DNA of 35,154 nucleotides from a virus. Taxonomy: Duplodnaviria > Heunggongvirae > Uroviricota > Caudoviricetes. The stretch is from the IMG/VR virus record IMGVR_UViG_2913152634_000005, one strand, 5' to 3'. The number at the start of each line of letters is the position of its first letter. Position 1 is the first letter of the stretch. The notes under the pieces were generated by a model. That model saw nothing but the letters and a program-made list of their open reading frames with translations, was not told the DNA's origin and did not search any database. Below are positions 10,566-27,536 of this stretch, piece by piece. The position numbers were made by a program, and so were the translations under genes.

Positions 10566-11329
10566 TACCTAATTTTTAACCTCAACTGATTAAATTTCGG
10601 TCAAACATCCGTTAGTGAAATACAAGTTGCTATGTAAATACACACCTGCAACTTGTATTACCAACCAAGTTTAGCTCCCGATATTACTCATTTCCATTAT
10701 TTTTCCTTGGCTAGCGCTTCGTCGAACATTTTTACGTGTTATCTTCAAGGTAGATGCTCGCAGAAATGATAGTACCACCGATTCGGCGTTGACCATAAGC
10801 CAGCAGAACAAGATCCCCTTGGCCGGTTGTATTCGTTACACCACCAAATGCATAGAATGCCTTGTTATCAGTATCTTGCTTACTCGGCTACCCACAAGAT
10901 TGTGGGGATAGCATTTGAGCAACGTAGCCTATCGTCACAGAAGCCCCTACTACAAACATCATATTACTGGACGCTATACGCGCTCCTGACATTCAGATAG
11001 ACACAGCAACGCAAATCATTTGCAGCAGACCAGAGCTTTTACTTTCCACAATAACTGGCACAAATACGAATTTCCCGACCCTCAGTAGAGAGCACAAGCG
11101 CATCTTTTCCAATATTCTGTTTCCTATGAAAAATACAGAATGTCAGCTCGCGAAATTTACTAGTATTCAGATACTTTTCTAATCGAACCTCTCAGTTTAA
11201 TCGTCATCATTACCTTATAGCTCTGCATTTCGAGTTCCTACAGTAGAGTAAGTGTTCAGTAACCCAAGTTCAGGAGAAAGGAAACGATCATGCCATTTTC
11301 AGTCCCAAATAATGCTTTCCATTTCCTTT

Positions 11330-11480
11330 CTTTTCAGGTGGTGTTTTAAATAAAAACATAAAGTTACGGCGAAGAAGAACGGAAACGCCTTAAACCGGAA
11401 AATTTCCATAAATAGAGAAAAACTGCGCGCCTTCCGCCCCGTAACGCTCCGGATCACCGGAAAGGACCCGCTCAAAAAAA
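11330..11480. other. cos-like DNA packaging site of the integrated element (cosB/cosQ conserved, cosN divergent)
   Basis: About 150 bp with roughly 85-90% identity to the prophage cos region at 27122-27270; cosN position reads GGGCGGAAGGCG versus GGGCGGCGACCT. Confidence 0.7.
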
Positions 11481-11513
11481 GCGGCCACTGACGTGATTGT
11501 TTATGTTCCATGA

Positions 11514-11545
11514 GCGACAAAACCGCCCGGAGGCGGTTTCACATA
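11514..11545 (-). terminator. rho-independent terminator after the gpI-like gene
   Basis: minus-strand CCGCC-tccg-GGCGG stem followed by TTTTG. Confidence 0.5.
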
Positions 11546-11557
11546 AAACATTCTGCA

Positions 11558-12205
11558 TCAGCGACCAATCACCACGATTTCACCACCATCACCTTCATCA
11601 GCTGTGCTGATCTCCTGAGATACCACACGTGACCCCACGCGCATTTCACCGTACAGAACAGGCAGGACATTGCCCTGGGCAACCATGTTATCCAGTGACG
11701 AGAAATACGTGTTCTGCTTACCGTTATCCGTTGTCTGTGTACGGGGAGTTCTGGCTTTCGGTGCCAGCATCTGAGCCACACCGCCAAGGATCATACTGGC
11801 CCCCGCACTATACATTCCTGTAATTGCTGCCGCTCCTAGCCAACCAGCGGGGTTCCACCACGCCACCGCAATCAGCGCCGCCCCCAGCACGGTCTGAAAC
11901 ACACCGCCACTTTTAGCGCCAGCAAGACGCGGTACGATGTGGATCACAGCACCATTCGCCAGCGGCTCATTAAGACGGGCTGATAATTCATTTTCGCCTG
12001 CATCCCGCCCGGCAATCCGTACCTGATACCAACCGTCGCTCAGTTTCTGACGAAACGACGGTAGCTGTGTGGACAGAGCTCGGATGGCTTCAGCCCCCGT
12101 TTTTACACGAAGGTCGATGCGGCGGCCGAATCGTTGCAAATCCCCGTAAAGGCAGATTCGTGCCATGCCCGATGACGCCAGAGGGAGTGTGTGCGTAGTT
12201 GCCAT
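11558..12205 (-). CDS. I: lambda gpI-like tail assembly protein
   Basis: 215 aa; MATTHTLPLASSGMARICLYGDLQRFGRRIDLRVKTG...NTYFSSLDNMVAQGNVLPVLYGEMRVGSRVVSQEISTADEGDGG closely matches lambda gpI as remembered. Confidence 0.8.
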   Translation of the reverse strand: MATTHTLPLASSGMARICLYGDLQRFGRRIDLRVKTGAEAIRALSTQLPSFRQKLSDGWYQVRIAGRDAGENELSARLNEPLANGAVIHIVPRLAGAKSGGVFQTVLGAALIAVAWWNPAGWLGAAAITGMYSAGASMILGGVAQMLAPKARTPRTQTTDNGKQNTYFSSLDNMVAQGNVLPVLYGEMRVGSRVVSQEISTADEGDGGEIVVIGR

Positions 12206-12245
12206 TTGTCGGTATACCTCTCTCGTTTGCTCTGTTGTTCAGAAA

Positions 12246-12629
12246 TTAGCAGATCAACTTATAGCGTCCCTTCCGAGCATTGCGGCGTACACGTTCAATC
12301 TTGAGGCATAGCGCCGCATCTGGCTTTTTTGGGACTGGTACACGGCAATATTCAGAAGCGCGAGGAATATTATTTATCCAGTCAATCACTTCGCTTAAAT
12401 ACCAGGCCTTACGCCCTTCCGTAACCTGCACACGCTCCGGGAACTCTCCACGGGCCTCAAGGTTTAGCAGTGTACGACGACTCAGGGTTGTAAGTTCCAT
12501 CACCTGATTCATATCAACAAGACGCTCGCTTAAACGCATTTTGTCAGCGATAGCTTTTAATTCCTCTACAGCTGGATTTGGGTACATAATTTCGGCAATT
12601 GGCTTAAGGTCATTGTAATGATTCTGCAT
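12246..12629 (-). CDS. AlpA/MerR-like winged-HTH DNA-binding protein (function uncertain; candidate packaging-specificity factor)
   Basis: 127 aa; HTH segment MELTTLSRRTLLNLEARGEFPERVQVTEGRKAWYLSEVIDWI; strong RBS aaggggga. Confidence 0.55.
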   Translation of the reverse strand: MQNHYNDLKPIAEIMYPNPAVEELKAIADKMRLSERLVDMNQVMELTTLSRRTLLNLEARGEFPERVQVTEGRKAWYLSEVIDWINNIPRASEYCRVPVPKKPDAALCLKIERVRRNARKGRYKLIC

Positions 12630-12640
12630 TGTATCCCCCT

Positions 12641-12982
12641 TTACACACGAGCCAGCGGCTGAACAGAAATACCTGAGCCAACAAACGCTGCAACCTTTAC
12701 TGACAGTTCTTTTACAGACTCAGGCCAGTTCAGAGCATCAACATTTAAGACACCTGTCTTATAGACCTGAGCCTGTGTTTTTTTCGCGGTGTCGATTTGT
12801 ACAGCGGATACATAAACCGCTTTACCTACGCTCGTACCATCCCATACCACCAGTGCACCTGTTGCATCTTCCTGCATCAGTGGCGTAAATGCAGGAATTA
12901 CCCCTTTATTAGCTGAAAATATCCCCAGCGTAGTAACCAGTGCTTCAGTGCCAGCCATGAGTTCAGTGTAATGAGTAGCCAT
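12641..12982 (-). CDS. head decoration protein, distant lambda D homologue
   Basis: 113 aa; TPLM...LVVWDGTS.GKAV...Y.KTG...WPE...AF.GSGIS pattern parallels lambda gpD; translationally coupled to the capsid gene. Confidence 0.6.
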   Translation of the reverse strand: MATHYTELMAGTEALVTTLGIFSANKGVIPAFTPLMQEDATGALVVWDGTSVGKAVYVSAVQIDTAKKTQAQVYKTGVLNVDALNWPESVKELSVKVAAFVGSGISVQPLARV

Positions 12983-12991
12983 TGCTCCCCC

Positions 12992-14038
12992 TTAGCCAAT
13001 GCGAACGGTAACAAAACGATTGATGCGGGCCGGTATTGGCTGTGGTGCTGAATGTGTCTGCACATATTCAATAGCCGGATCACCAGGCACAATATAGTTT
13101 TTCGGTGCAAGTTCGGCTTTAGTCAGCCCCATTCGGATTAGCTCCGGATCCTGAATACCGCCATAGGCGACAATCCCCTGAAGAGCCGTATTGCCAAGCA
13201 CCATCAAATCAGGATCAAGGAAATGTTTTTCAGTTCCGTCCTCGTCGGTATAACGCCCGCTGTAAACAACAATCGCAACATCGCCCATATACCCTTTAAA
13301 ACTCACCGAATCACCAAGGTCTTTAAGGGCCGTTTCCAGTTCGGAATTAGAACCACGACGGGTATCCAGAGCCTCTTTTATCGCTCTGAATGAACGGTAT
13401 TTCTTCCATACATTACCGCCCATAATGATGATATTAGTGACGCCCTCACTAAATTCTGCGTAGTTCTCAATATCATCATTTGGATCAAAAGTTTCTTTAT
13501 CCTTACCTGACCACTCAGCACCGCCAGACTGAGTGATGATATTTTGTGGTTTAATATTCCAGTCCAGCTCATAACGTTCAATACCATCGCCCTCAATGAT
13601 ATTTTTCCCCGTTGTGATTGCCTGAACGGCAAGCCATTCAATACGTGCACGAATAGCTTTAGCTTGATTTACAATCGCCTGTTTAACTTTAATATTACGC
13701 GCCCCAAAAGCATTGTATTGCTCAGGTGATACACCAGCAGGGCGCACAGCTAACTTATTTGGATCAATGCTGCTTTTCGGCTTCATATAGCCTGGACGAA
13801 TTGTTTTTGATTCGTACCCTTCGTCACGTGAAACTTTACTACCCACCATAGGAGAACAAAACGCTGCAATTGGGATATTTGGATCGTCGATTGTATCAAG
13901 AATAATATCGCGCGATTCAAACATTACCGAGCGAGTAAAAAACAAACGGGTAAACAACGCATTTAGTTGTTTTTGTACATCTACAGCATTAACCACCTGT
14001 ACAAGCTGGGTAGGCGAATATAAATCAACCATACGCAT
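12992..14038 (-). CDS. major capsid protein, lambda E-like, encoded by the integrated element
   Basis: Conserved blocks ITQSGGAEWSGKDKETFDPNDDIE, DTRRGSNSELETALKDLG, YMGDVAIVVYSG, LGNT shared with lambda gpE at roughly half identity; start at ATG 14036-38 or 14030-32. Confidence 0.82.
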   Translation of the reverse strand: MRMVDLYSPTQLVQVVNAVDVQKQLNALFTRLFFTRSVMFESRDIILDTIDDPNIPIAAFCSPMVGSKVSRDEGYESKTIRPGYMKPKSSIDPNKLAVRPAGVSPEQYNAFGARNIKVKQAIVNQAKAIRARIEWLAVQAITTGKNIIEGDGIERYELDWNIKPQNIITQSGGAEWSGKDKETFDPNDDIENYAEFSEGVTNIIIMGGNVWKKYRSFRAIKEALDTRRGSNSELETALKDLGDSVSFKGYMGDVAIVVYSGRYTDEDGTEKHFLDPDLMVLGNTALQGIVAYGGIQDPELIRMGLTKAELAPKNYIVPGDPAIEYVQTHSAPQPIPARINRFVTVRIG

Positions 14039-14249
14039 CCTCTTTGCATTCATTAAAAATAATTGTGGATATATGCTATCACCGATATTTGTCATGCGAA
14101 TACATGCAACCGAGTGCAATGTTGTATAAAGTTTTGGGATGACAACTTCAGCGCGGATAATTAGTGTTAATATCTTCACTCCCTTTGGTCGGGATTTATG
14201 TAGCATGCCGGAAAATTTATTTTTTTCCGGCCTTTTTTATTGGCAATAT

Positions 14250-14699
14250 TTAAAACGGAATATCATCTCCCCATTGCTCATTATCTCCCACTGGTGGATG
14301 GCTTCCTTGCTGATCTGCCTGTTGTTTTGCTCTGTTCAGTGCGTCAGTAGCCTGCCCCTGTTGGCCTTTTTTGCCGCCCGGTCGCACCGTTCGCGCACTG
14401 ATTACGCTGTCTGCGATAACCTGCCAGCCCTGCCGCGTTTCACCGTTCTGTCCAGTCCACTGACTCACCTGCATGTTACCCGCCACGCTCAGGAGTTCGC
14501 CTTTGTGATGCTTTGCCAGCGCGTCGGCTTGTCTGCCAAACGCCAGAACAGATAACCACATCGTCGCCTGACCGTCATCCGATTGGCTGCAGGGCAGTGA
14601 TACCGCCATACGCGCCAGCGTCATGGGGGTGCCCTTGCTGGTCTGTTTTGTCTGCGGGGCGTCCACCAGCCGCCCGTAAGCTGCTATTTGCGCCGTCAT
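14250..14699 (-). CDS. ssb: single-stranded DNA-binding protein
   Basis: 149 aa; OB-fold SSB pattern, Gly/Gln-rich linker and C-terminal acidic tail DDIPF. Confidence 0.85.
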   Translation of the reverse strand: MTAQIAAYGRLVDAPQTKQTSKGTPMTLARMAVSLPCSQSDDGQATMWLSVLAFGRQADALAKHHKGELLSVAGNMQVSQWTGQNGETRQGWQVIADSVISARTVRPGGKKGQQGQATDALNRAKQQADQQGSHPPVGDNEQWGDDIPF

Positions 14700-14953
14700 G
14701 CTGCCTGCTCTCCGGACTTAATATTGATGGTTGTCACTTCCTCCGCTTCGGCAATCTCCCGTTCGGTCAGCGTGGCAAAGTTTGCAGCCGCCGTTGTCAT
14801 GAATGCGCTTATCAGTTCGGGATGTGCTTTCGCGTATCCTTCCCCGGCGTTGCGGTCTATTGCCTTAATCGCCACCCTTAGCCAGTGTTCAGCCATATCA
14901 AGGGCGCGGTAATGTGGCTTTATATGTTTGTTCAGTTTTCCTGATGTGTGCAT
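14696..14953 (-). CDS. hypothetical protein, translationally coupled to ssb
   Basis: 85-aa ORF; stop overlaps the ssb start. Confidence 0.4.
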   Translation of the reverse strand: MHTSGKLNKHIKPHYRALDMAEHWLRVAIKAIDRNAGEGYAKAHPELISAFMTTAAANFATLTEREIAEAEEVTTINIKSGEQAA

Positions 14954-14989
14954 TTTTATTTTTACCCCCTCGTTTAAAAAGTTTTTTGT

Positions 14990-15240
14990 GCACCACCACC
15001 TTGTCTACCTTGTCTACCTGATTAGTTATCAGGCCAGTAATGGCGCGGGTTTCAGGGAGGTAGACAGCCCCAAATAGCTGTCTACCTCATCTCTACCCGT
15101 CTCCTTACCTGTCTACAAAAATGGGTAGATAAGGTAGATAACAGGTAGACAGTGAAAAATAGTTATCTACCTGCATTAATACATTGAAATAAAAGTATTT
15201 TCTTTCAGTCAGGTAGACAAGGTAGATAACCATTGCCATT
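14990..15240. repeat. iteron array, putative replication origin of the element
   Basis: At least ten copies of GGTAGACA/GGTAGATA and their complements TGTCTACC in both orientations, directly downstream of the helicase gene. Confidence 0.7.
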
Positions 15241-15242
15241 TT

Positions 15243-16334
15243 TTATAAAAACGCATCGCAATCATCAGTAGTCGTTGCGTTGGTCTGCGTGACTCCCTTA
15301 ACTTTTCGCGTAATATATTCATATCCGTAAACTTTCGCCGCTGACCTCATAGCCTTTCCGAACTCATTCACGCTCAAACATTTCCCCTTTCCTGTGTATG
15401 CCATGAAGGCCATATAGACACGGTAAAGGCTGTTTCTGGTCGTGTACTTCACGGAGTCACCACCACCGCCCATCATTAGCCCACGAGCTTCCTCCAGAAA
15501 CTCAAGCGCCGCGCAAAGCTCAACAACTGGATCCGTTTGCTGCTTTATTGCCAGAGCTTCATCACCGTCACGCTGTTCCAGTAGTAAAGCCCTTGCCTTT
15601 TCAGGGTCAGCAAAGTTAGCCAGCAAGCGGCGGATAATTACGGGGATTTCTGCCGCTATCTTTTCCGGTAATTCCTTGTCTTTTTCGTCCTCCCTTACAA
15701 TGTTGTCGAACCGGAAAATCACCCGACGGCGTGACACACCTCCGGCCCGTTCGGTAAAGATCATCGGGTCGTTATTGGTTGCCAGTACCACCGCCCTTAT
15801 TATCGTCGTGAATCGCTTCTCATATTTCGGATTGATTTCAACGGGATCGCCTCCCGTGATTTTCTTGATGCCCGTGCCTTCCCCCGTATATTTCGGCTGA
15901 TCGGCAAGGACGATAAGACGACTCCCGACAACCTGCGCGCGCCCTCCTGCATCATCGAGTGATGTCATCTCTGCGCTTACGGTGTTCTGTTTGCCTGCAA
16001 GCAGGGTGGCAATATGGGTAAATGTACTCTTACCGCTTCCCCCGTCTCCGGTGGCCTCAATGAACATCTGCCAGTCGTAGCGGTTCGCCATAATCATGTA
16101 TAACGCGGCACATATACGCATCATCTTGCGCGGGTCTTTTCCTGCAGCATGTTCAAGCCATTTATGGAAATTTGGCGCATTATCGCGGATGTTTTCCCCT
16201 GCTACTGGTGGCGTGTACTCAATACCATTGTGCGTGGTGCTCCAGTGCTCCGGCGAGTGCGGAGAAAATTCCCCCGTTTTCAGATTAAGCACACCATTAG
16301 TGAACGGTAGCAAATCACCGGACGGCTCCCCCAT
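15243..16334 (-). CDS. replicative helicase domain protein (P4-alpha/D5-type, SF3)
   Basis: 363 aa; Walker A GDGGSGKST, Walker B LIVLADQP; FTNGVLNLKTGEF motif typical of the D5_N/primase linker. Confidence 0.8.
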   Translation of the reverse strand: MGEPSGDLLPFTNGVLNLKTGEFSPHSPEHWSTTHNGIEYTPPVAGENIRDNAPNFHKWLEHAAGKDPRKMMRICAALYMIMANRYDWQMFIEATGDGGSGKSTFTHIATLLAGKQNTVSAEMTSLDDAGGRAQVVGSRLIVLADQPKYTGEGTGIKKITGGDPVEINPKYEKRFTTIIRAVVLATNNDPMIFTERAGGVSRRRVIFRFDNIVREDEKDKELPEKIAAEIPVIIRRLLANFADPEKARALLLEQRDGDEALAIKQQTDPVVELCAALEFLEEARGLMMGGGGDSVKYTTRNSLYRVYMAFMAYTGKGKCLSVNEFGKAMRSAAKVYGYEYITRKVKGVTQTNATTTDDCDAFL

Positions 16335-16993
16335 GGGGCGGCAATAACTTTTAACGCTTCCACGGCGTTATTGATTACGCGTTTGCTGAACGTGGCCCTG
16401 TGCTCTGAATAGATCGCCACCATTTCGCGGCTCAGCTCCATTGTGCTGACCGGACACCATACCCCGCCGCGCCATACGTGGACGATTTCACTTTCTGCAT
16501 GAACACAAACACCATCAAAGCGATCGGCAAGTAGTTGTGCCCGCTCACTGTCTGCCATCTGTGAAAGTTGCGCCTTTTGCTTCGTCGGAAGATTAAGCAC
16601 CAGGCTTTCCCCACGCTCGCATTCCTCTTTGAGTCGCGGCAACTGGTCGGATAAATCCACAGGGCTGGTGTCAGTAATCCCCGCGTATTCGTGTACGGTC
16701 TTCACTCCAGCCACAGCCAGTAACGTAACAATCTGCGTCATGCTGTGCTCTGTGATATGTCCTGCGCGGTAAACACGCACACACTGACGATCTTCATCAA
16801 TGATCCGGTAATCGGTGATGTTTTTCAGTTGCTCATCAGCCAGCACGACAGGCGGCACATCGTCGGCGGCAATATGTTTACCCGCCCATTCCTGCCACTC
16901 TTTCGCATGGCTCCACGCATCACTACCTGCAAAGATGATTACCTCTGTCAGTCTGTCGCGTGGCTGTTTTTTTAAGTTCGGTGCCAGTTTCAT
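16280..16993 (-). CDS. primase-like replication protein, N-terminal module (overlaps the helicase ORF by 55 nt in another frame)
   Basis: 237-aa ORF upstream of the helicase; the overlap suggests one primase-helicase gene split by a frameshift. Confidence 0.5.
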   Translation of the reverse strand: MKLAPNLKKQPRDRLTEVIIFAGSDAWSHAKEWQEWAGKHIAADDVPPVVLADEQLKNITDYRIIDEDRQCVRVYRAGHITEHSMTQIVTLLAVAGVKTVHEYAGITDTSPVDLSDQLPRLKEECERGESLVLNLPTKQKAQLSQMADSERAQLLADRFDGVCVHAESEIVHVWRGGVWCPVSTMELSREMVAIYSEHRATFSKRVINNAVEALKVIAAPWGSRPVICYRSLMVCLI

Positions 16994-17289
16994 TTTTTGC
17001 CCCTGAATGCGTTAATCATGCTTTTCATTTTCTGGATGTTTCCCCGCGCTTTTTCCCTGCTGGTGGGCTTACTGCGGGGTGCGGCATATACCAGGGAAAA
17101 ATCACGCCGGAACTGATAAACAGGCATCACGCAGTCATAGCTATACCCCTCACGGCGGTAAGTGATGCGCCGTTCTGCCACGCCTTTAATCGTTACCGTG
17201 CCGCCGTATTTATCGCGGTAAATATCGCCGTTCATAAATTCAGGCCGAGCGGGGCCGCTGGCAATAAAGCCAGAATTTTTCATTTCCAT
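16990..17289 (-). CDS. hypothetical protein
   Basis: 99-aa ORF, stop overlaps the primase start (ATGA). Confidence 0.4.
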   Translation of the reverse strand: MEMKNSGFIASGPARPEFMNGDIYRDKYGGTVTIKGVAERRITYRREGYSYDCVMPVYQFRRDFSLVYAAPRSKPTSREKARGNIQKMKSMINAFRGKK

Positions 17290-17306
17290 ATTATTTATTC
17301 TTCGAC

Positions 17307-17528
17307 TTAACTCGACTTATTTGATAGCAGGGCACTATTTATTGCGTCATTGAGTTTTTCTGCTGCTTCATCAATAAGTGACAACAGGCCATAAGCAATA
17401 TTTGCATCTTCATTGTCATTTATGCAATCAAGCCACATATTTAATATTGCTTTTGCTGAATTATTTAAAGTTAATGAACTCTCTGCACATGCTAACAATT
17501 TAAAAAAGACTTCTCGTTCTGTATTCAT
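17307..17528 (-). CDS. hypothetical protein
   Basis: 73-aa ORF in a tightly packed leftward operon. Confidence 0.35.
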   Translation of the reverse strand: MNTEREVFFKLLACAESSLTLNNSAKAILNMWLDCINDNEDANIAYGLLSLIDEAAEKLNDAINSALLSNKSS

Positions 17529-17720
17529 TTAATCCCCCACCAGCTTACTTTCTTCCTCAATCAGGAAACTAGCGACACTTCCCGAAAGGCGCGCCAGTAG
17601 GCTCGCCAGCGCGGATATATCAGCATCTGTAATTTTGTTCGGGTATACCTCAAGAAGGCGGCAAATAATCTCTGTTTGGTGCGCACGTTCAGCGGCTTCG
17701 TGTAATGTGATTTCCTGCAT
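17529..17720 (-). CDS. hypothetical protein
   Basis: 63-aa ORF abutting its neighbours. Confidence 0.35.
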   Translation of the reverse strand: MQEITLHEAAERAHQTEIICRLLEVYPNKITDADISALASLLARLSGSVASFLIEEESKLVGD

Positions 17721-17905
17721 TAATGCACCTCTTTTAATTCATACACTGCTGAAATAATGACTTGTGATAAGCCATATTCTGATGATTCGCTTCTCACCGC
17801 AGCAATAGCCGTCTGAACATTAACAGCCTTCACGTTCTGAGCGATACCAATTGTGTGGCCTCGTGGGTTAACAGCTCGGGCAAATACACGGAAGGTTTTA
17901 AGCAC
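17720..17905 (-). CDS. hypothetical protein
   Basis: 61-aa ORF abutting its neighbours. Confidence 0.35.
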   Translation of the reverse strand: MLKTFRVFARAVNPRGHTIGIAQNVKAVNVQTAIAAVRSESSEYGLSQVIISAVYELKEVH

Positions 17906-18161
17906 GGCGCACCTCCTGACGAATACGGGCAGCGAATACCATCACGCAGCCAGTTGGGGATTGCTGGCGGGCTTCCTGTTCGCTGATGGCCTCGATGGTA
18001 ATCACGCGCGGTTGTGCCGTACTCAAGGCGATAAAACGCCAGATGTATTTATTCAGGTTGTGCGAGTTCCGCCCTTGCGGGTGTGTGGTATGATTTCTCA
18101 TAGCTACCTCGATACTGTTGCTATCGTTGGTGGTTAAACGCCCTGTATGTGTTGCGAGCAC
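17898..18161 (-). CDS. hypothetical protein, first gene of the leftward operon
   Basis: 87-aa ORF starting next to the divergent promoter region. Confidence 0.35.
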   Translation of the reverse strand: MLATHTGRLTTNDSNSIEVAMRNHTTHPQGRNSHNLNKYIWRFIALSTAQPRVITIEAISEQEARQQSPTGCVMVFAARIRQEVRRA

Positions 18162-18196
18162 TGCAGGGCGTTGTTCCAGAGCAATAAAACATGATA

Positions 18197-18240
18197 AGGT
18201 GTGTACCTATCAAGAAGCATACTAAGCAATAGGTACATAC
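18197..18240. promoter_or_regulatory. inverted-repeat operator in a divergent promoter region
   Basis: TGTACCTAT (18202-18210) and ATAGGTACA (18229-18237) form a 9-bp inverted repeat immediately upstream of the RHH gene. Confidence 0.45.
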
Positions 18241-18435
18241 ATGTCAACTATCATTCAGCGCGATAAACAGCCGAAAGGTGCTGGTAAGGCACCGGCATTT
18301 CAGATCCGTATCAACCCGGAACTAAAAGAACAAATGGTTAGTGCGGCTGCAAAAGAAGGAATGAGTTTGGCTAATTGGCTTAAAGAACTAGCAAGAGCAG
18401 AACTACGCAAACAAGGTATTGAACCTAGAGGTTAA
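18241..18435 (+). CDS. ribbon-helix-helix DNA-binding protein (repressor or antitoxin-like)
   Basis: 64 aa; beta-strand FQIRINPEL followed by two helices (KEQMVSAAAKEG / MSLANWLKELARAEL), typical of CopG/Arc RHH proteins. Confidence 0.55.
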   Translation: MSTIIQRDKQPKGAGKAPAFQIRINPELKEQMVSAAAKEGMSLANWLKELARAELRKQGIEPRG

Positions 18436-18459
18436 GACTTTTAAAAGGATCTGTGAGAG

Positions 18460-19185
18460 ATGCAAAATCTAAAACGAATAAGTGAATATAATTTAACAGA
18501 CAATCCTATCCCACATTATTTCCCTCATGATAGTAGATTCCTGTCTCTACTTGGGAAATTTTCGTTCCGACTTGAAGATCTAATAGTATTTCACTCATTT
18601 GTTTATCATACATATAACATAAATCTTAAGGAGATACAAAAAATTGCAGATAACACTCCCCAATATAATCCAGACTTATTAGACGATGAAGAGCATGAAA
18701 TGGCCTTGATTTCTCAAGCCAGACATAGAGAGAGGGTTGGTTATTATGATGATCTTAATAGAAAAGCCTCATTTTTTGCCAATGACAGTGTCGTAATTAA
18801 TCTTTGGGCTATTATTGAACAGTTTAGTACCATGGCATACTCTTTGCTAGAAGCAATTATTAAAGAAATACCTGAAAATCAAGTTAAAGTTCCATATACA
18901 TGGGATAAATTAAAAAAGAAATACTTAAGTTATGGTATTGACCTCTCCCAACTTGATTCTTACGATGTCATTAACGAAACTAGGGTTTTAAACAACAAAA
19001 TCAAACACCTTTATATTGTCGATGAAAACCTTGCCTCTTTTCCTTTTTTCAAGGACAAAGAGAACAAGTCATTATTAGGAATGGAATATAGGCTTCAAGA
19101 TTATGTTATTGGAACTCATAAGTTCATCGGGCATCTTTTAGAGGATTGCTCCATAAAATTAGGAAATAAGGCAAACATGATTTAA
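18460..19185 (+). CDS. hypothetical protein, AT-rich cargo gene (candidate toxin or defence effector)
   Basis: 241-aa ORF 24 nt after the RHH gene; no family recognised; visibly AT-rich. Confidence 0.5.
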   Translation: MQNLKRISEYNLTDNPIPHYFPHDSRFLSLLGKFSFRLEDLIVFHSFVYHTYNINLKEIQKIADNTPQYNPDLLDDEEHEMALISQARHRERVGYYDDLNRKASFFANDSVVINLWAIIEQFSTMAYSLLEAIIKEIPENQVKVPYTWDKLKKKYLSYGIDLSQLDSYDVINETRVLNNKIKHLYIVDENLASFPFFKDKENKSLLGMEYRLQDYVIGTHKFIGHLLEDCSIKLGNKANMI

Positions 19186-19189
19186 ATTA

Positions 19190-19222
19190 ATTAGGTAGGT
19201 AATAAACCTACCTAATTGAAAT
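19190..19222. terminator. bidirectional terminator hairpin between convergent genes
   Basis: Perfect palindrome TTAGGTAGGT-aataaa-CCTACCTAA. Confidence 0.55.
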
Positions 19223-19225
19223 GAT

Positions 19226-19459
19226 TTACTTATTTAAGTACCATTCCCCACGAATCCACGCCTGCACCTCCGAAAGGCGATATGCTACGGCAGTGGCACC
19301 TATTTTAATTCGCTTTGGAAACTTTCCTTCTTTCTCTAACTTCCATCGAGTGCTATTAGCAAGAGTAGTTAACTCACGGCATTCTTTCTCACGGATCATT
19401 CGGTCAATGTTAGGAATGTATTCCAGACCCTTTTTATCAACAATTGCCATTTTTTTCAT
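19226..19459 (-). CDS. alpA: AlpA-family excisionase/transcriptional regulator
   Basis: 77 aa; HTH CRELTTLANSTRWKLEKEGKFPKRIKIG; immediately downstream of int. Confidence 0.7.
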   Translation of the reverse strand: MKKMAIVDKKGLEYIPNIDRMIREKECRELTTLANSTRWKLEKEGKFPKRIKIGATAVAYRLSEVQAWIRGEWYLNK

Positions 19460-19460
19460 G

Positions 19461-20573
19461 TTAACCAGCCTTTTGTTTGAGGATTGTCACTTTTGAATCA
19501 GCAGCTGCGATGCTATTGAGATATGTAGTCCAGAGTTCCAGAGCATCCAGTTTTTTAGCCATAAACTTACTCCGGTTGTAAACACCTGCCACGCCAGGTA
19601 GCGCATGGCCTAACAGTTGTTCTACTACATAAAATTCAACACCGAGATCACTTAGATGAGTAGATAGCGTTCTTCTAAGGTCGTGTAGTGACCATTGTTT
19701 TTCATGGCCCAAACGTTTACCGATTTTCCCCCCAATCTTGCTTACGCTTTCTCTAATTCGCAGACTTCCCAGCACATAACCAGTATGTTTTGTCTCTTCG
19801 TGAACATCCGTTACCCACTGTCGTAGAATTTCAGGTACTGGTCTGACGATTTCAACACCAGTTTTTGAGTGATCTTTTGGTACAGTCCAAACCCAACTTT
19901 CGAGATCCCATTCGCTCCATTCTGATAATCGGGCTTCACTCATTCGACATCCAAATACTGTACAAAGCACAAACATTTTTCGCGTGTATTCAGACATTAG
20001 TTTTAAATCAGGCTCGACAAAAATTGCCTTCCAGAGCTGGCCGAGTTCGGCTTCATCCAGAACCCGATCCCGCTTACCTGCAATCTGCCCCACATCACTC
20101 ATGCGCAAATCCTTTAAAGCATCACACGTCGCGTACTGGCGTACCCGACAAAAACGAAGAGCTAATTTAGTGTCAGAAAAAACATACGCCGCCATAACTG
20201 GTGCATTACTTTTAATTCGGTCAAAACAGTCCAGCCATTCATATAGGTGAGTGTCATTTACGGGCAAATGACCGATATAGGGAAAGATATGCTTTCGAAA
20301 TCTGCCAAGCGTTACAGCATGAGTTTTACGACGCACCTTACAGTAATTTTCATACCAGTAATTTAGTGCATCCTCCACTGTGACCGGCTTTAAGCGTTCT
20401 TCAGCCTGAATCTTAATCTGGATACGCGGATCACGTTTGTCAGCCAACCAAGCACGGCACTCGTCGCGCTTTTCCCTTGCCTGTTTGAGTGACATATCAG
20501 GATATTTACCCAACGTTAGCCAGACCGGAGCAGCCCGGCCACCTGCTAACCTGTAGAAGAAAACAAAGCTCAC
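19461..20573 (-). CDS. int: tyrosine integrase (P4-type), catalytic portion; N-terminal arm-binding segment lies in another frame at 20573-20695
   Basis: 370 aa with R...HDLRRT...LLGH...Y tyrosine-recombinase motifs; ORF 20570-20827 encodes the expected N-terminus MAGENKLSDKALKGYLGKPREKQITIADGKGLSIRVSTKGL and stops 1 nt out of frame. Confidence 0.8.
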   Translation of the reverse strand: MSFVFFYRLAGGRAAPVWLTLGKYPDMSLKQAREKRDECRAWLADKRDPRIQIKIQAEERLKPVTVEDALNYWYENYCKVRRKTHAVTLGRFRKHIFPYIGHLPVNDTHLYEWLDCFDRIKSNAPVMAAYVFSDTKLALRFCRVRQYATCDALKDLRMSDVGQIAGKRDRVLDEAELGQLWKAIFVEPDLKLMSEYTRKMFVLCTVFGCRMSEARLSEWSEWDLESWVWTVPKDHSKTGVEIVRPVPEILRQWVTDVHEETKHTGYVLGSLRIRESVSKIGGKIGKRLGHEKQWSLHDLRRTLSTHLSDLGVEFYVVEQLLGHALPGVAGVYNRSKFMAKKLDALELWTTYLNSIAAADSKVTILKQKAG

Positions 20574-20827
20574 AGCCCCTTGGTACTCACACGAATAGAA
20601 AGCCCCTTTCCATCAGCAATGGTGATCTGCTTTTCTCTGGGTTTCCCCAGATATCCTTTAAGTGCTTTGTCGCTCAGTTTGTTCTCGCCAGCCATTTTTA
20701 GCCCCAAAAAGCAATACAAGCTGCAATACAGAGATGATTGCAACACACAGATAACGAGGAAAATCCAGTGAAAGCGCCAGATAAACTTATTCTTTATTAT
20801 CAAAAGATTAAGTGTAAAAACCAGCAA

Positions 20828-21103
20828 CTACACGAAAGCCTCAGAAAGCCATGCTAAGTGCTTCGGCTTGACATATCCCGGCGTAAATTCAGAGGTGGAG
20901 CCGCCACGGGAGCGGATAACCTCACCGGAAACAATCGGCGAAACGTACAGCGCCATGTTTACCAGCCCCGGAATTTGTGAGAGATAGACTTTCTCCGTGG
21001 TGAAGGGATAGCTCTCACGGAAAAAGAGACGCAGAAACAGCGGATCAAACTTAAATTTCTGCTCATTTGCCGCCAGCAGCTGGGCGGTTGTGTACATCGA
21101 CAT
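20828..21103 (-). pseudogene. E: major capsid protein E, 5' fragment (codons 1-84 plus 9 element-derived codons)
   Basis: MSMYTTAQLLAANEQKFKFDPLFLRLFFRESYPFTTEKVYLSQIPGLVNMALYVSPIVSGEVIRSRGGSTSEFTPGYVKPKH matches lambda gpE 1-84, then LAWLSEAFV-stop. Confidence 0.88.
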
Positions 21104-21158
21104 AAAAAAATCCCGTAAAAAAAGCCGCAAAGGCGGCCTTTAGTGATGAAGGGTCAGG

Positions 21159-27047: not shown

Positions 27048-27119
27048 TGTTCATTCCACGGACAAAAACAGAGAAAGGAAACGACAGAGGCCAAAAAGCT
27101 CGCTTTCAGCACCTGTCGT

Positions 27120-27245
27120 TTCCTTTCTTTTCAGGGGGTATTTTAAATAAAAACACTAAGTTACGACGAAGAAGAACGGAAACGCCTTAAACCGGAAAAT
27201 TTTCATAAATAGCGAAAACCCGCGAGGTCGCCGCCCCGTAGCCTG
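27120..27245. other. prophage cos site (cosB, cosN at 27216-27227, cosQ)
   Basis: Minus strand reads ...CAGGCTACG GGGCGGCGACCT CGCGGGTTTTCGCTATTTATGAAAATTTTCCGGTTTAAGGCG..., the lambda cos as remembered. Confidence 0.85.
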
Positions 27246-27536
27246 CCGGATCGCCGGAAAGGACCCGCAAGCGTTCTGGTTTATTCGCAATGAATTCAAT
27301 GTCTGACAGACCAGCGTCGTGCGACCACGGTCGCACGCTCCTGAATACATGCCCTGTTTCTTCCACCCTCGCACAAGACTGGCGAGCATGAGGGACAAAC
27401 CCGCGAATCATTAGCGCGGTAAAAACCCGGTGTGCATCGTTTTGATTATTCCCGCACACTCGCGCAGAAGGAATTCCCCGTCGGGCTACGGTCATGGTTA
27501 ATGCGGGAATACGGCGACGATACAGCGCATAATGTG

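What the first reader, a model, noticed from the sequence alone, without database searches (positions are those of the whole stretch)
16990..18161. Operon of five tiny unknown ORFs upstream of the primase
Five back-to-back ORFs of 61-99 aa with overlapping or abutting stops and starts run leftward from the divergent promoter region toward the replication genes. In satellites this position commonly holds derepression and helper-interference functions. None matches a family I recognise.
Basis: inference. Interest (0 to 1): 0.4.

Follow-up and report, generated by a model that had tools for sequence, protein, structure and literature searches.

The report
Satellite early operon ahead of primase
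The five small genes are real and are the front end of the early (replication) operon of a known kind of phage satellite that sits inside its helper prophage's capsid gene; the first is a cell-division-inhibitor homologue, the last a widespread domain of unknown function, and the three in between are swappable genes of unknown function, so the finding is genuine but ordinary.

Summary
Five minus-strand ORFs (17898-18101, 17720-17905, 17529-17720, 17307-17528, 16990-17289) are abutting or overlapping, each has a Shine-Dalgarno site, and they run into the primase gene through an ATGA overlap. The first ORF most likely starts at ATG 18101 (67 aa), not GTG 18161.

Two ORFs belong to named families. 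The first is an Icd-like division inhibitor, homologous to the Kil part of P4 Eta. The last is DUF4222. The middle three fall only in 'unknown function' PHROGs and are confined to Escherichia and Shigella.

The element is a helper-embedded PICI, a satellite type published in 2023, inserted in a lambda-E-like capsid gene. In 87 related loci the Icd head and the DUF4222-plus-replicase tail are constant. The interior is a mosaic of at least 10 small-ORF families.

The operon starts at a promoter whose -10 is bracketed by a 12-nt inverted repeat. That repeat co-varies with the divergently encoded ribbon-helix-helix protein. A leader hairpin with covariation follows. No P4-type C4/CI RNA and no P4 epsilon homologue is present.

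Verdict: a new member of a known kind, of low to moderate interest. The functions of the three middle ORFs remain untested.

The parts
18219..18247 (-). Promoter-like site of the operon: -35 TTGACA (18247-18242), 17-nt spacer, -10 TAGTAT (18224-18219). It overlaps the start codon of the divergent RHH gene.
   Evidence: 10 of 12 matches. A TTGAC[AG]/TTGAAG hexamer aligns at the same place in the related loci. No transcript data are available.
18199..18240 (.). Operator-like 12-nt inverted repeat (18199-18210 / 18229-18240, 18-nt spacer) that brackets the -10.
   Evidence: 92% complementary. In related loci both copies change together, and each of 16 clusters of the divergent RHH protein has its own repeat pair. 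The binding protein is inferred.
18241..18435 (+). Divergent 64-aa ribbon-helix-helix protein, the candidate repressor of the operon. RefSeq names it 'HicB family antitoxin'.
   Evidence: Pfam HicB 5.5e-05. phrog_228 Arc-like repressor 4.6e-07. YlcI/YnfO 9.9e-05, below cutoff. A small divergently oriented YlcI/YnfO-type gene sits at the same place in L004-L006 and in most IMG/VR relatives.
18138..18171 (-). Leader RNA hairpin: an 8-9 bp G+C-rich outer stem plus a 3-4 bp inner stem.
   Evidence: 12 pairs, 8 with changes on both sides, 87.9% of cells paired, covariation 0.231 against 0.070 in shuffles (0 of 500), and it collapses when the partners are slid. RNAfold predicts it (-33 kcal/mol, z -2.76). 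There are at least 8 sequence variants of the hairpin.
18102..18137 (-). Nearly invariant leader tail TTAACCACCAACGATAG, plus a small hairpin (CGATA/TATCG) whose base pairs ACC with GGU of the SD (GAGG 18107-18110).
   Evidence: Conservation. The pairing is predicted only, and no covariation is available because the sequence does not vary.
17898..18101 (-). ORF1: Icd-like protein, 67 aa (87 aa if read from GTG 18161).
   Evidence: NF033153 2.6e-18. phrog_6196 3.2e-55. The same HMM hits the C-terminal (Kil) part of P4 Eta at 7.8e-21. dN/dS 0.20-0.37. Annotated as such in RefSeq.
17720..17905 (-). ORF2 (o61): 61 aa, beta-beta-alpha-beta fold, function unknown.
17529..17720 (-). ORF3 (o63): 63 aa, sequence suggests a helical protein (not modelled), function unknown.
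   Evidence: phrog_1478 2.5e-34. 42 clusters, all Escherichia or Shigella. dN/dS 0.17-0.18. No PDB relative. Not related to P4 epsilon.
17307..17528 (-). ORF4 (o73): 73 aa, low G+C, sequence suggests a helical protein (not modelled), function unknown. It belongs to a divergent family that usually sits just before DUF4222.
   Evidence: phrog_2196 2.2e-28. 29-31%-identical proteins occupy the same slot in L003 and L004. The o73 family precedes DUF4222 in most architectures. No PDB relative.
16990..17289 (-). ORF5: DUF4222 protein, 99 aa. It has an SH3/Tudor/KOW-like barrel (residues about 21-68) and a basic C-terminal helix. Its stop overlaps the primase start (ATGA).
15243..16993 (-). Primase/helicase (D5_N, DUF5906, Pox_D5). 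It is split into two ORFs in this window by a 1-nt deletion at 16335.
   Evidence: It is a single 583-aa CDS in NZ_CP027550.1. The deletion is located.
15000..15235 (.). Iteron cluster (AGGTAGAYA, at least 10 copies in both orientations), a probable satellite origin of replication.
   Evidence: Its position downstream of pri matches the PICI ori described in PMC6092414.
14250..14953 (-). Distal genes of the same transcription unit: an 85-aa ORF (14696-14953) and SSB (14250-14699).
   Evidence: TIGR00621 ssb 6.3e-17. No minus-strand terminator-like site was found between 18212 and 14250 by a simple pattern scan.
19226..20695 (-). Integration zone of the satellite: integrase (19461-20695, frameshifted at 20576 in this window) and AlpA (19226-19459).
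   Evidence: The frameshift is located.

Best explanation
The five ORFs are the promoter-proximal genes of the single long early operon of a Gram-negative phage-inducible chromosomal island (PICI). This copy is a helper-embedded PICI inserted in the lambda-E-like capsid gene of a lambdoid prophage.

The transcription unit reads: P(icd) - structured leader - icd-like - o61 - o63 - o73 - DUF4222 - primase/helicase - ori - orf85 - ssb.

Shown:
- The genes are real, translationally coupled and under purifying selection.
- ORF1 is a member of the Icd-like family, the family of P1 Icd and of the Kil part of P4 Eta.
- ORF5 is a DUF4222 protein that is invariably fused in an operon to the replicase.
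- The three interior ORFs occupy a recombination-prone slot in which at least 10 small-ORF families are exchanged between otherwise near-identical elements.

Inferred:
1. In the quiescent state the divergent 64-aa RHH protein binds the inverted repeat bracketing the -10 and keeps the operon off. The leader hairpins further limit icd translation by sequestering the SD.
2. On induction of the helper-satellite composite, the operon is transcribed. This happens either by relief of the RHH block or by AlpA-driven read-through from upstream, for which no minus-strand terminator-like site was detected.
3. The Icd-like protein blocks Z-ring formation, as P1 Icd does by binding FtsZ. This holds the cell undivided while the satellite replicates.
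4. DUF4222 (a Tudor/SH3-like barrel with a basic helix) acts with the conserved N-terminal domain of the replicase or on nucleic acid at the origin, in the position that Cnr holds in P4.
5. o61, o63 and o73 are exchangeable accessory proteins that bind host, helper or competitor targets not yet identified.
For: Context:
- RefSeq annotation of the 100%-identical locus shows int, alpA, Icd-like, three hypotheticals, DUF4222, primase, SSB, then capsid and decoration genes. All of this lies between the two halves of a prophage major capsid gene.
- This is the HE-PICI E:Phage_cap_E configuration with Integration/Bro/Replication/Late zones, as described in PMC10111431.

Family assignments.

Coding and selection.

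Synteny:
- Icd-like, small ORFs, DUF4222 and a replicase follow in that order in four other E. coli elements, in E. albertii and in IMG/VR loci.
- Of the 87 loci analysed, 62 hold a DUF4222 gene, always directly before the replicase. The replicase can be of the primase, DUF927 or RepA-helicase type.
- The exact window gene order occurs in 10 of the 87 loci.
- By megablast, icd occurs in 1299 and DUF4222 in 1184 of 5426 genomes, against 236, 263 and 129 for o61, o63 and o73.

Regulation:
- Promoter.
- Inverted repeat around the -10.
- 16 RHH clusters, each with its own repeat pair.
- Hairpin covariation.
- Predicted SD pairing.
- No minus-strand terminator-like site within the unit.

Function of the family:
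- P1 Icd binds FtsZ and blocks the Z ring, with core residues 12-51 (PMC11897509).
- In ECOR61, an Icd-like gene plus five linked genes including a primase gave growth arrest when a phage accessory gene was expressed. Removing the Icd-like gene abolished the effect (bioRxiv 10.1101/2023.04.06.535777).

DUF4222 fold.
Against: - No expression or phenotype data exist for this locus.
- The Icd-like protein is only HMM-level related to P1 Icd. tblastn against 50,697 phage records finds one satellite-like record and not P1. FtsZ targeting is therefore extrapolated.
- RHH-operator co-variation could partly reflect physical linkage of adjacent sequences. Some relatives (L017 type, L003) have the repeats but apparently lack an intact RHH start codon.
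- The published model for Gram-negative PICIs is activation by AlpA, with no known repressor (PMC6092414).
- The DUF4222 and o61 folds are generic and give no specific function.
- The o61 model rests on a 7-sequence alignment, and the five AF2 models disagree.
- In this window primase and integrase each carry a 1-nt deletion. This copy may be defective, or the assembly may be in error.
Confidence: 0.7

Rival explanations
1. Some or all of the small ORFs derepress the helper or interfere with its late gene expression or assembly. Precedents are P4 epsilon (an antirepressor of the P2 C repressor) and the SaPI and PICI interference proteins.
For: - The block is positionally equivalent to P4 epsilon and orf151, between eta/kil and the primase.
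- The interior genes are narrow-range and shuffled between elements, as expected for genes in an arms race.
Against: - None matches PF25738 (the epsilon family) or any other Pfam or NCBIfam model of a known interference protein. hhalign of o63 against epsilon gives probability 0.1%.
- The known E. coli PICI interference protein Rpp is 135-154 aa, is a winged HTH and is encoded beside cos in the late zone (PMC6739421, PMC9026076), not here.
- A satellite embedded in its helper is induced with it and already delays capsid expression in cis (PMC10111431), so derepression is less needed.
Confidence: 0.2
2. The block is primarily an abortive-infection or superinfection-exclusion module. The Icd-like protein is a toxic effector kept silent by the RHH protein and leader, and is released when an incoming phage perturbs the control. 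The linked small proteins act as sensors or modulators.
For: - The ECOR61 precedent: growth arrest triggered by phage gene orf24 required an Icd-like gene and five linked genes including a primase.
- P4 kil is lethal when derepressed (same paper, and my own knowledge of the P4 literature).
- The RHH is annotated as an antitoxin.
- The satellite carries other defence cargo, an Abi_C protein at 9804-10565.
Against: - No PADLOC model matches any of the proteins.
- The RHH lacks a HicA partner. The 241-aa neighbour matches no family, and most relatives have the RHH alone.
- Translational coupling to the replicase fits a life-cycle operon better than a stand-alone defence system.
- The two readings are not exclusive.
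Confidence: 0.2
3. The ORFs are chance open frames or decaying pseudogenes in a non-coding spacer between promoter and primase.
For: - They are very short, and three have no curated family.
- The first ORF as given includes 60 nt of non-coding leader.
- Two other genes of this copy are frameshifted.
Against: - Every start has an SD, and the stops and starts are coupled.
- dN/dS is 0.17-0.7 at dS up to more than 1.
- o61 has a full-length homologue at 48% identity.
- All five score 1e-28 to 1e-55 against PHROG profiles.
- The sequences are intact in hundreds of genomes.
Confidence: 0.02

Closest known systems
[quoted passage not shown] 11capE (Tommasini, Mageeney & Williams 2023, PMC10111431), and Gram-negative PICIs such as EcCICFT073 (PMC6092414)
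   Same: - int, alpA and primase are co-oriented with the interrupted lambda-E-like capsid gene.
- The size is about 11.4 kb.
- The four zones are present, with captured capsid and decoration genes.
- An iteron ori lies after pri, and there is a cos-like copy.
- The five ORFs lie where that paper places its 'Bro zone', between Integration and Replication.
   Different: - No Bro-N or Ash domain protein and no C4/isrK RNA is found in this element's zone.
- Instead there are a divergent RHH gene with cognate repeats and a different leader hairpin.
- The papers read do not describe the small ORFs individually. They state that a repressor for Gram-negative PICIs is unknown.
Left (early) operon of satellite phage P4: vis(alpA) - eta/kil with embedded CI RNA - epsilon - orf151 - cnr - alpha
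   Same: - The order of functions is the same: an Icd-like gene first, small genes, then the primase.
- ORF1 and the C-terminal part of P4 Eta hit the same Icd-like HMM.
- DUF4222 shows a weak resemblance to the N-terminus of orf151: blastp E 0.009 and hhalign E 0.0012 at probability 19%.
   Different: - There is no Ash domain on ORF1.
- There is no C4/CI RNA and no seqA/isrK site. Rfam finds both in P4 and in relative L006 but not here.
- There is no epsilon (PF25738) and no Cnr (DUF5375) homologue.
- The primase is of a different family.
- alpA is separated from the operon by a plus-strand cassette.
immI operon of phage P1/P7: c4 antisense RNA - icd - ant
   Same: A small Icd-family gene is the first cistron. 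It is translationally coupled to the next gene and is preceded by a structured leader that occludes its ribosome-binding site.
   Different: - There is no c4 RNA with a'/b' sites and no ant gene.
- Similarity to P1 Icd is detectable only through the family HMM.
stl/str divergent control region of SaPIs and Gram-positive PICIs
   Same: A small DNA-binding protein gene is transcribed divergently from the operon that leads to the replication genes, with the operators in the shared intergenic region.
   Different: - Stl proteins are larger HTH repressors counteracted by specific helper proteins.
- Here the candidate is a 57-106-aa RHH protein (64 aa in this window), and its role is inferred only from repeat co-variation.

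Membership tests
Icd-like host cell division inhibitor (NCBIfam NF033153; P1 Icd, P4 Kil) | Match to the 48-residue family domain above the curated cutoff | tested here: met
   65.8 bits against a cutoff of 25, E 2.6e-18, residues 39-82 of the 87-aa reading. The same model hits P4 Eta residues 85-132.
Icd-like host cell division inhibitor (NCBIfam NF033153; P1 Icd, P4 Kil) | Blocks cell division or binds FtsZ when expressed | not testable with these tools
   Shown for P1 Icd only (PMC11897509). This needs expression and microscopy.
DUF4222 (Pfam PF13973) | Match to the domain above the gathering score | tested here: met
   83.2 bits against 27, E 9.1e-24, residues 16-67.
P4/P1-type RNA immunity (C4/CI RNA with seqA/a1b1 targets) | C4 (RF01695) and isrK/c4-a1b1 elements upstream of or within the icd-type gene | tested here: not met
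   No hit at E up to 10 in 16800-18600. The same search finds C4 and isrK in P4 and in relative L006, as positive controls.
P4 epsilon helper-derepression protein (Pfam PF25738) | Sequence match to the family | tested here: not met
   None of the five ORFs hits at E up to 0.1, while P4 epsilon scores 9.2e-51. hhalign of o63 against epsilon gives probability 0.1%.
Gram-negative PICI / helper-embedded PICI | [quoted passage not shown] | tested here: met
   AlpA 6.5e-15; primase D5_N/DUF5906. The element is about 11.4 kb between capsid-gene fragments at 8664-9452 and 20828-21130, all on the minus strand.
Gram-negative PICI / helper-embedded PICI | Excision, replication and transfer on helper induction | not testable with these tools
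   In this window int and pri carry 1-nt deletions relative to NZ_CP027550.1.
HicAB type II toxin-antitoxin (RefSeq name of the divergent 64-aa protein) | An adjacent HicA toxin gene | tested here: not met
   The only co-oriented neighbour (241 aa, 18460-19185) matches no Pfam, NCBIfam, PHROG or PADLOC family. Most relatives have the RHH gene alone.
Known anti-phage defence systems (PADLOC-DB 2.0) | Match of any of the five proteins to a defence-system model | tested here: not met
   0 families for all five.

The most novel reading that the evidence does not exclude
A large group of E. coli PICIs has replaced the P4/P1-type C4/CI RNA immunity upstream of the Icd-like gene with a protein switch. 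A tiny divergent RHH repressor has element-specific operator repeats around the -10, in at least 16 specificity types. A new, covarying leader hairpin sits with an invariant ACCACCA-containing tail. The interior of the operon (o61, o63, o73 and at least 7 other families) is a hot spot of exchangeable host-takeover or counter-defence cassettes.

This would give Gram-negative PICIs the repressor that the literature says is missing, and a ready catalogue of small effector proteins.
Probability: 0.3. Interest if true: 0.55.

Novelty: new member of a known kind. Interest (0 to 1): 0.3.

Why it matters
As stated, the finding matters little. It re-describes annotated genes of a published satellite class.

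It gains some value as a map.
- It shows that roughly a quarter of complete E. coli genomes carry a conserved 'Icd-like ... DUF4222-replicase' frame, with a shuffled interior of tiny genes.
- It suggests that this frame is governed by an undescribed RHH-operator module and a structured leader, rather than by the P4-type RNA.

If confirmed, that would bear on the open question of how Gram-negative PICIs are kept silent. It would also point to a compact set of candidate host- or phage-directed small proteins for screening.

Tried and rejected
- **Rfam, gathering and E up to 10, on the operon and leader.** No C4, isrK or other family. The positive controls P4 and L006 were found.
- **blastn 'distant' of the whole block against 50,697 phage records.** No match.
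- **tblastn of ORF1 against the same records.** One satellite-like record only.
- **P4 homology.** blastp and hhalign against eta, epsilon, orf151, cnr and orf88 gave only the family-level Icd link and an inconclusive DUF4222/orf151 resemblance.
- **o61 as a paralogue of the Icd-like domain.** Rejected, hhalign probability 0.1%.
- **A 247-aa protein with an o61-like C-terminus (P0175).** It looked like a possible domain-fusion clue. Its N-terminus looks by eye like a hexapeptide-repeat acyltransferase, and the fusion is probably a gene-call artefact.
- **PDB sequence searches with profiles of o63 and Icd and with o73.** Nothing meaningful.
- **Fold searches.** DUF4222 is a generic SH3/Tudor/KOW barrel. 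o61 is a generic eL20/PurS-like fold, and its BFVD matches are all uncharacterised.
- **PADLOC.** No hit for any of the five ORFs.
- **Genome-wide species scan with the DUF4222 alignment.** It returned only Shigella and E. albertii loci, because the pattern search is tied to near-identical motifs.
- **Literature searches.** DUF4222 and RHH repressors in PICIs have no functional study in the library.
- **Rpp (packaging redirection).** Considered for the small ORFs and rejected on size, fold and location.
- **The second helix.** My structure string was one column out of register, so its counts are meaningless. That small hairpin rests on the RNAfold prediction only.
Full report
**1. Observation**

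The ORF list and the sequence show five consecutive minus-strand ORFs:
- 17898-18161 (87 aa from GTG)
- 17720-17905 (61 aa)
- 17529-17720 (63 aa)
- 17307-17528 (73 aa)
- 16990-17289 (99 aa)

They are joined by a GTGCTTAA overlap, TAATG, TAAATG and a 17-nt gap. The last ORF is joined to the primase ORF by an ATGA overlap. Each start has a purine-rich SD.

The block is 100% identical to annotated CDSs of E. coli 2015C-4136CT1, NZ_CP027550.1.

Codon-level comparison with diverged copies gives dN/dS of 0.20-0.37 for ORF1, 0.17-0.18 for o63 and 0.24-0.70 for DUF4222. The weak o73 relatives give 0.38-0.87 at near-saturated dS. o61 has a full-length 48%-identical homologue in E. albertii. These are real genes.

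One correction concerns the first ORF. The 60 nt between ATG 18101 and GTG 18161 fall in a leader hairpin that evolves by compensatory changes and single-base indels. The upstream frame is closed in some relatives. The first protein is therefore most likely the 67-aa product that RefSeq annotates.

**2. Context**

The window is a lambdoid prophage whose major capsid gene is split. The N-terminal fragment is at 20828-21130 and the C-terminal fragment at 8664-9452. Between them lies an element of about 11.4 kb, co-oriented with the capsid gene. It carries:
- integrase and AlpA
- a plus-strand RHH gene followed by a 241-aa gene
- the five ORFs
- a primase/helicase
- an 85-aa ORF and SSB
- its own lambda-E-like capsid gene and a D-like decoration gene
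- a second AlpA-domain protein
- tail-gene fragments
- an Abi_C protein

[quoted passage not shown] They divide such elements into Integration, Bro, Replication and Late zones. The five ORFs lie between Integration and Replication.

**3. What the five proteins are**

ORF1 is an Icd-like protein. It hits NCBIfam NF033153 (65.8 bits, cutoff 25) and phrog_6196, which is labelled 'transcriptional repressor'.
- My reading is that this PHROG label comes from the old annotation of the P4 'cI' ORF, which is really eta/kil with the CI RNA inside it.
- The same HMM hits the C-terminal (Kil) part of P4 Eta. The N-terminal part of Eta is an Ash domain that ORF1 lacks.

ORF5 is a DUF4222 protein.
- Its AlphaFold model has a confident five-stranded SH3/Tudor/KOW-like barrel and a basic C-terminal helix.

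o61, o63 and o73 hit only 'unknown function' PHROGs.
- They have no Pfam, NCBIfam, PADLOC or PDB relatives.
- They are narrow-range. o61 has 7 relatives among 1.84 billion representative proteins. o63 has 42 clusters, all Escherichia or Shigella.
- o61 is predicted as beta-beta-alpha-beta. The best model has pLDDT 92.6, but the alignment is shallow and the five models disagree.
- The closest folds to o61 are ribosomal eL20/LX and PurS, plus many uncharacterised phage proteins.

**4. Conservation and architecture**

Four other E. coli elements, E. albertii and 80 IMG/VR contigs show the same frame:
- int
- alpA
- often a divergent small YlcI/YnfO-type RHH gene
- Icd-like
- two to five small ORFs
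- DUF4222
- a replicase
- a small ORF
- SSB

Clustering the ORF chains of 87 loci shows three things.
- The Icd head and the DUF4222-replicase tail are constant. The tail holds whether the replicase is of the primase, DUF927 or RepA-helicase type. All these replicases share the same N-terminal sequence of roughly 35 residues or more.
- The interior is a mosaic of at least 10 families.
- The window's exact gene order occurs in 10 of the 87 loci.

By megablast, the Icd region occurs in 1299 and DUF4222 in 1184 of 5426 complete E. coli genomes. The figures for o61, o63 and o73 are 236, 263 and 129.

Divergent homologues of o73 (29-31% identity) occupy the slot just before DUF4222 in other elements.

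**5. Regulation**

The best promoter-like site is TTGACA-17-TAGTAT at 18247-18219. It overlaps the start codon of the divergent 64-aa RHH gene.

A 12-nt inverted repeat (18199-18210 / 18229-18240) brackets the -10. In the related loci the divergent RHH proteins fall into 16 clusters. Each cluster has its own pair of repeats, direct or inverted, at the same two positions.
- That both copies change together is the signature of operators.
- That the RHH protein binds them is inferred from adjacency and from how RHH proteins usually bind DNA.
- A caveat: some relatives keep the repeats but seem to lack an intact RHH start codon.

Downstream, a hairpin at 18138-18171 is supported by covariation:
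- 8 of 12 pairs change on both sides.
- 87.9% of cells are paired.
- 0 of 500 shuffles reach the observed score.
- The slid controls are far lower.

The hairpin is followed by a nearly invariant TTAACCACCAACGATAG. After that comes a small hairpin predicted to pair ACC with GGU of the SD (prediction only).

Hairpin type and promoter type recombine freely. The hairpin is therefore an RNA feature, not the operator.

Rfam finds no C4 or isrK here. It does find them at the equivalent place in P4 and in relative L006. This element therefore lacks P4/P1-type RNA immunity.

No minus-strand terminator-like site lies between alpA and the operon, or inside the operon, by a simple pattern scan. AlpA-driven read-through, antisense to the RHH cassette, is therefore possible but untested.

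**6. Mechanism**

The best-supported reading is that these are the first cistrons of the satellite's early/replication operon.

By family membership, ORF1 should inhibit division.
- P1 Icd binds FtsZ and blocks Z-ring assembly (PMC11897509).
- In ECOR61, an Icd-like gene linked to five genes including a primase caused growth arrest when a phage gene was expressed. The Icd-like gene was required (bioRxiv 10.1101/2023.04.06.535777).

DUF4222 is most simply a partner of the replicase or of the origin. The origin is an iteron cluster at 15000-15235. This is inferred from DUF4222's invariant coupling to the replicase and from its basic tail.

The three interior ORFs are exchangeable accessory proteins, and their targets are unknown.

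There is no epsilon-family match. The known PICI interference protein Rpp is larger and is encoded beside cos.

**7. Comparison and novelty**

- The element type, the Icd-like family and DUF4222 are all known.
- The individual ORFs are annotated but unstudied. Literature searches for DUF4222, and for RHH repressors in PICIs, found no functional work.
- The finding is therefore a new member of a known kind.
- The parts I could not find described are the RHH-operator specificity modules, the covarying leader hairpin that stands where relatives have a C4 RNA, and the quantified mosaic of the interior.

**8. Limits**

- There are no expression or phenotype data.
- The AlphaFold models rest on shallow alignments.
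- The hairpin alignment comes from closely related elements, so relatedness inflates the shuffle statistics. The slid controls argue against an artefact.
- This window's copy has 1-nt deletions in the primase (16335) and the integrase (20576) relative to NZ_CP027550.1. These may be real inactivation or assembly error.

Noticed in passing
window 8664-9452, 20828-21130 and about 9453-20860: An 11.4-kb satellite lies inside, and co-oriented with, the lambda-E-like major capsid gene of a lambdoid prophage. This is a helper-embedded PICI of the published E:Phage_cap_E type. It carries its own full-length E-like capsid gene (12992-14032) and D-like decoration gene (12641-12982).
   Followed up: partly
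window 18199-18247 and 18241-18435; loci L004-L088: The divergent 64-aa RHH gene and the repeats bracketing the -10 of the operon co-vary. There are 16 RHH clusters, each with its own repeat pair. It looks like a set of immunity-type repressor/operator modules, which I did not find described for Gram-negative PICIs.
   Followed up: partly
window 18102-18171 (minus strand): A leader hairpin with compensatory changes (at least 8 variants) is followed by an invariant TTAACCACCAACGATAG and a predicted SD-sequestering stem. It stands where P4 and some relatives have the C4/CI RNA, but it matches no Rfam family.
   Followed up: partly
window 16335 and 20576: Single-base deletions relative to NZ_CP027550.1 split the primase (into 237-aa and 363-aa ORFs) and the integrase. 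Either this satellite copy is disabled or the assembly has indel errors.
   Followed up: partly
window 15000-15235: A dense iteron cluster (AGGTAGAYA, at least 10 copies in both orientations, flanking an A+T-rich stretch) lies directly downstream of the primase. It is a probable satellite origin.
   Followed up: partly
window 11322-11471 versus 27119-27268: The satellite carries a copy of the helper's cos region, 88% identical. The cosN core differs: GGGCGGAAGGCG in the satellite against GGGCGGCGACCT in the helper at 27225-27236.
   Followed up: partly
window 18460-19185 (+): A 241-aa, low-G+C ORF follows the RHH gene and is convergent with alpA. It matches nothing in Pfam, PHROGs, NCBIfam or PADLOC. 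It is a possible cargo or defence gene, seen in this element but not at this position in the four annotated E. coli relatives (L003-L006); the IMG/VR loci were not checked for it.
   Followed up: partly
window 9804-10565 (+) and 12246-12629 (-): The late zone of the satellite encodes an Abi_C (abortive infection) protein and a second AlpA-domain protein of 127 aa.
   Followed up: partly
window 6464-6586 (-): A full-length Rfam isrC (Hfq-binding sRNA) match, 135 bits, lies at the edge of the prophage remnant, next to an IS3 element.
   Followed up: no
loci L003-L088, first ~35 or more residues of the replicases: Replicases of three different types (primase/DUF5906, DUF927, RepA helicase) share the same N-terminal sequence (MK.APNLK.QP.D..TEVIIFAG.DAW...). 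The DNA match of the DUF4222 module extends into it, so DUF4222 and this N-terminal domain seem to travel as one unit.
   Followed up: no
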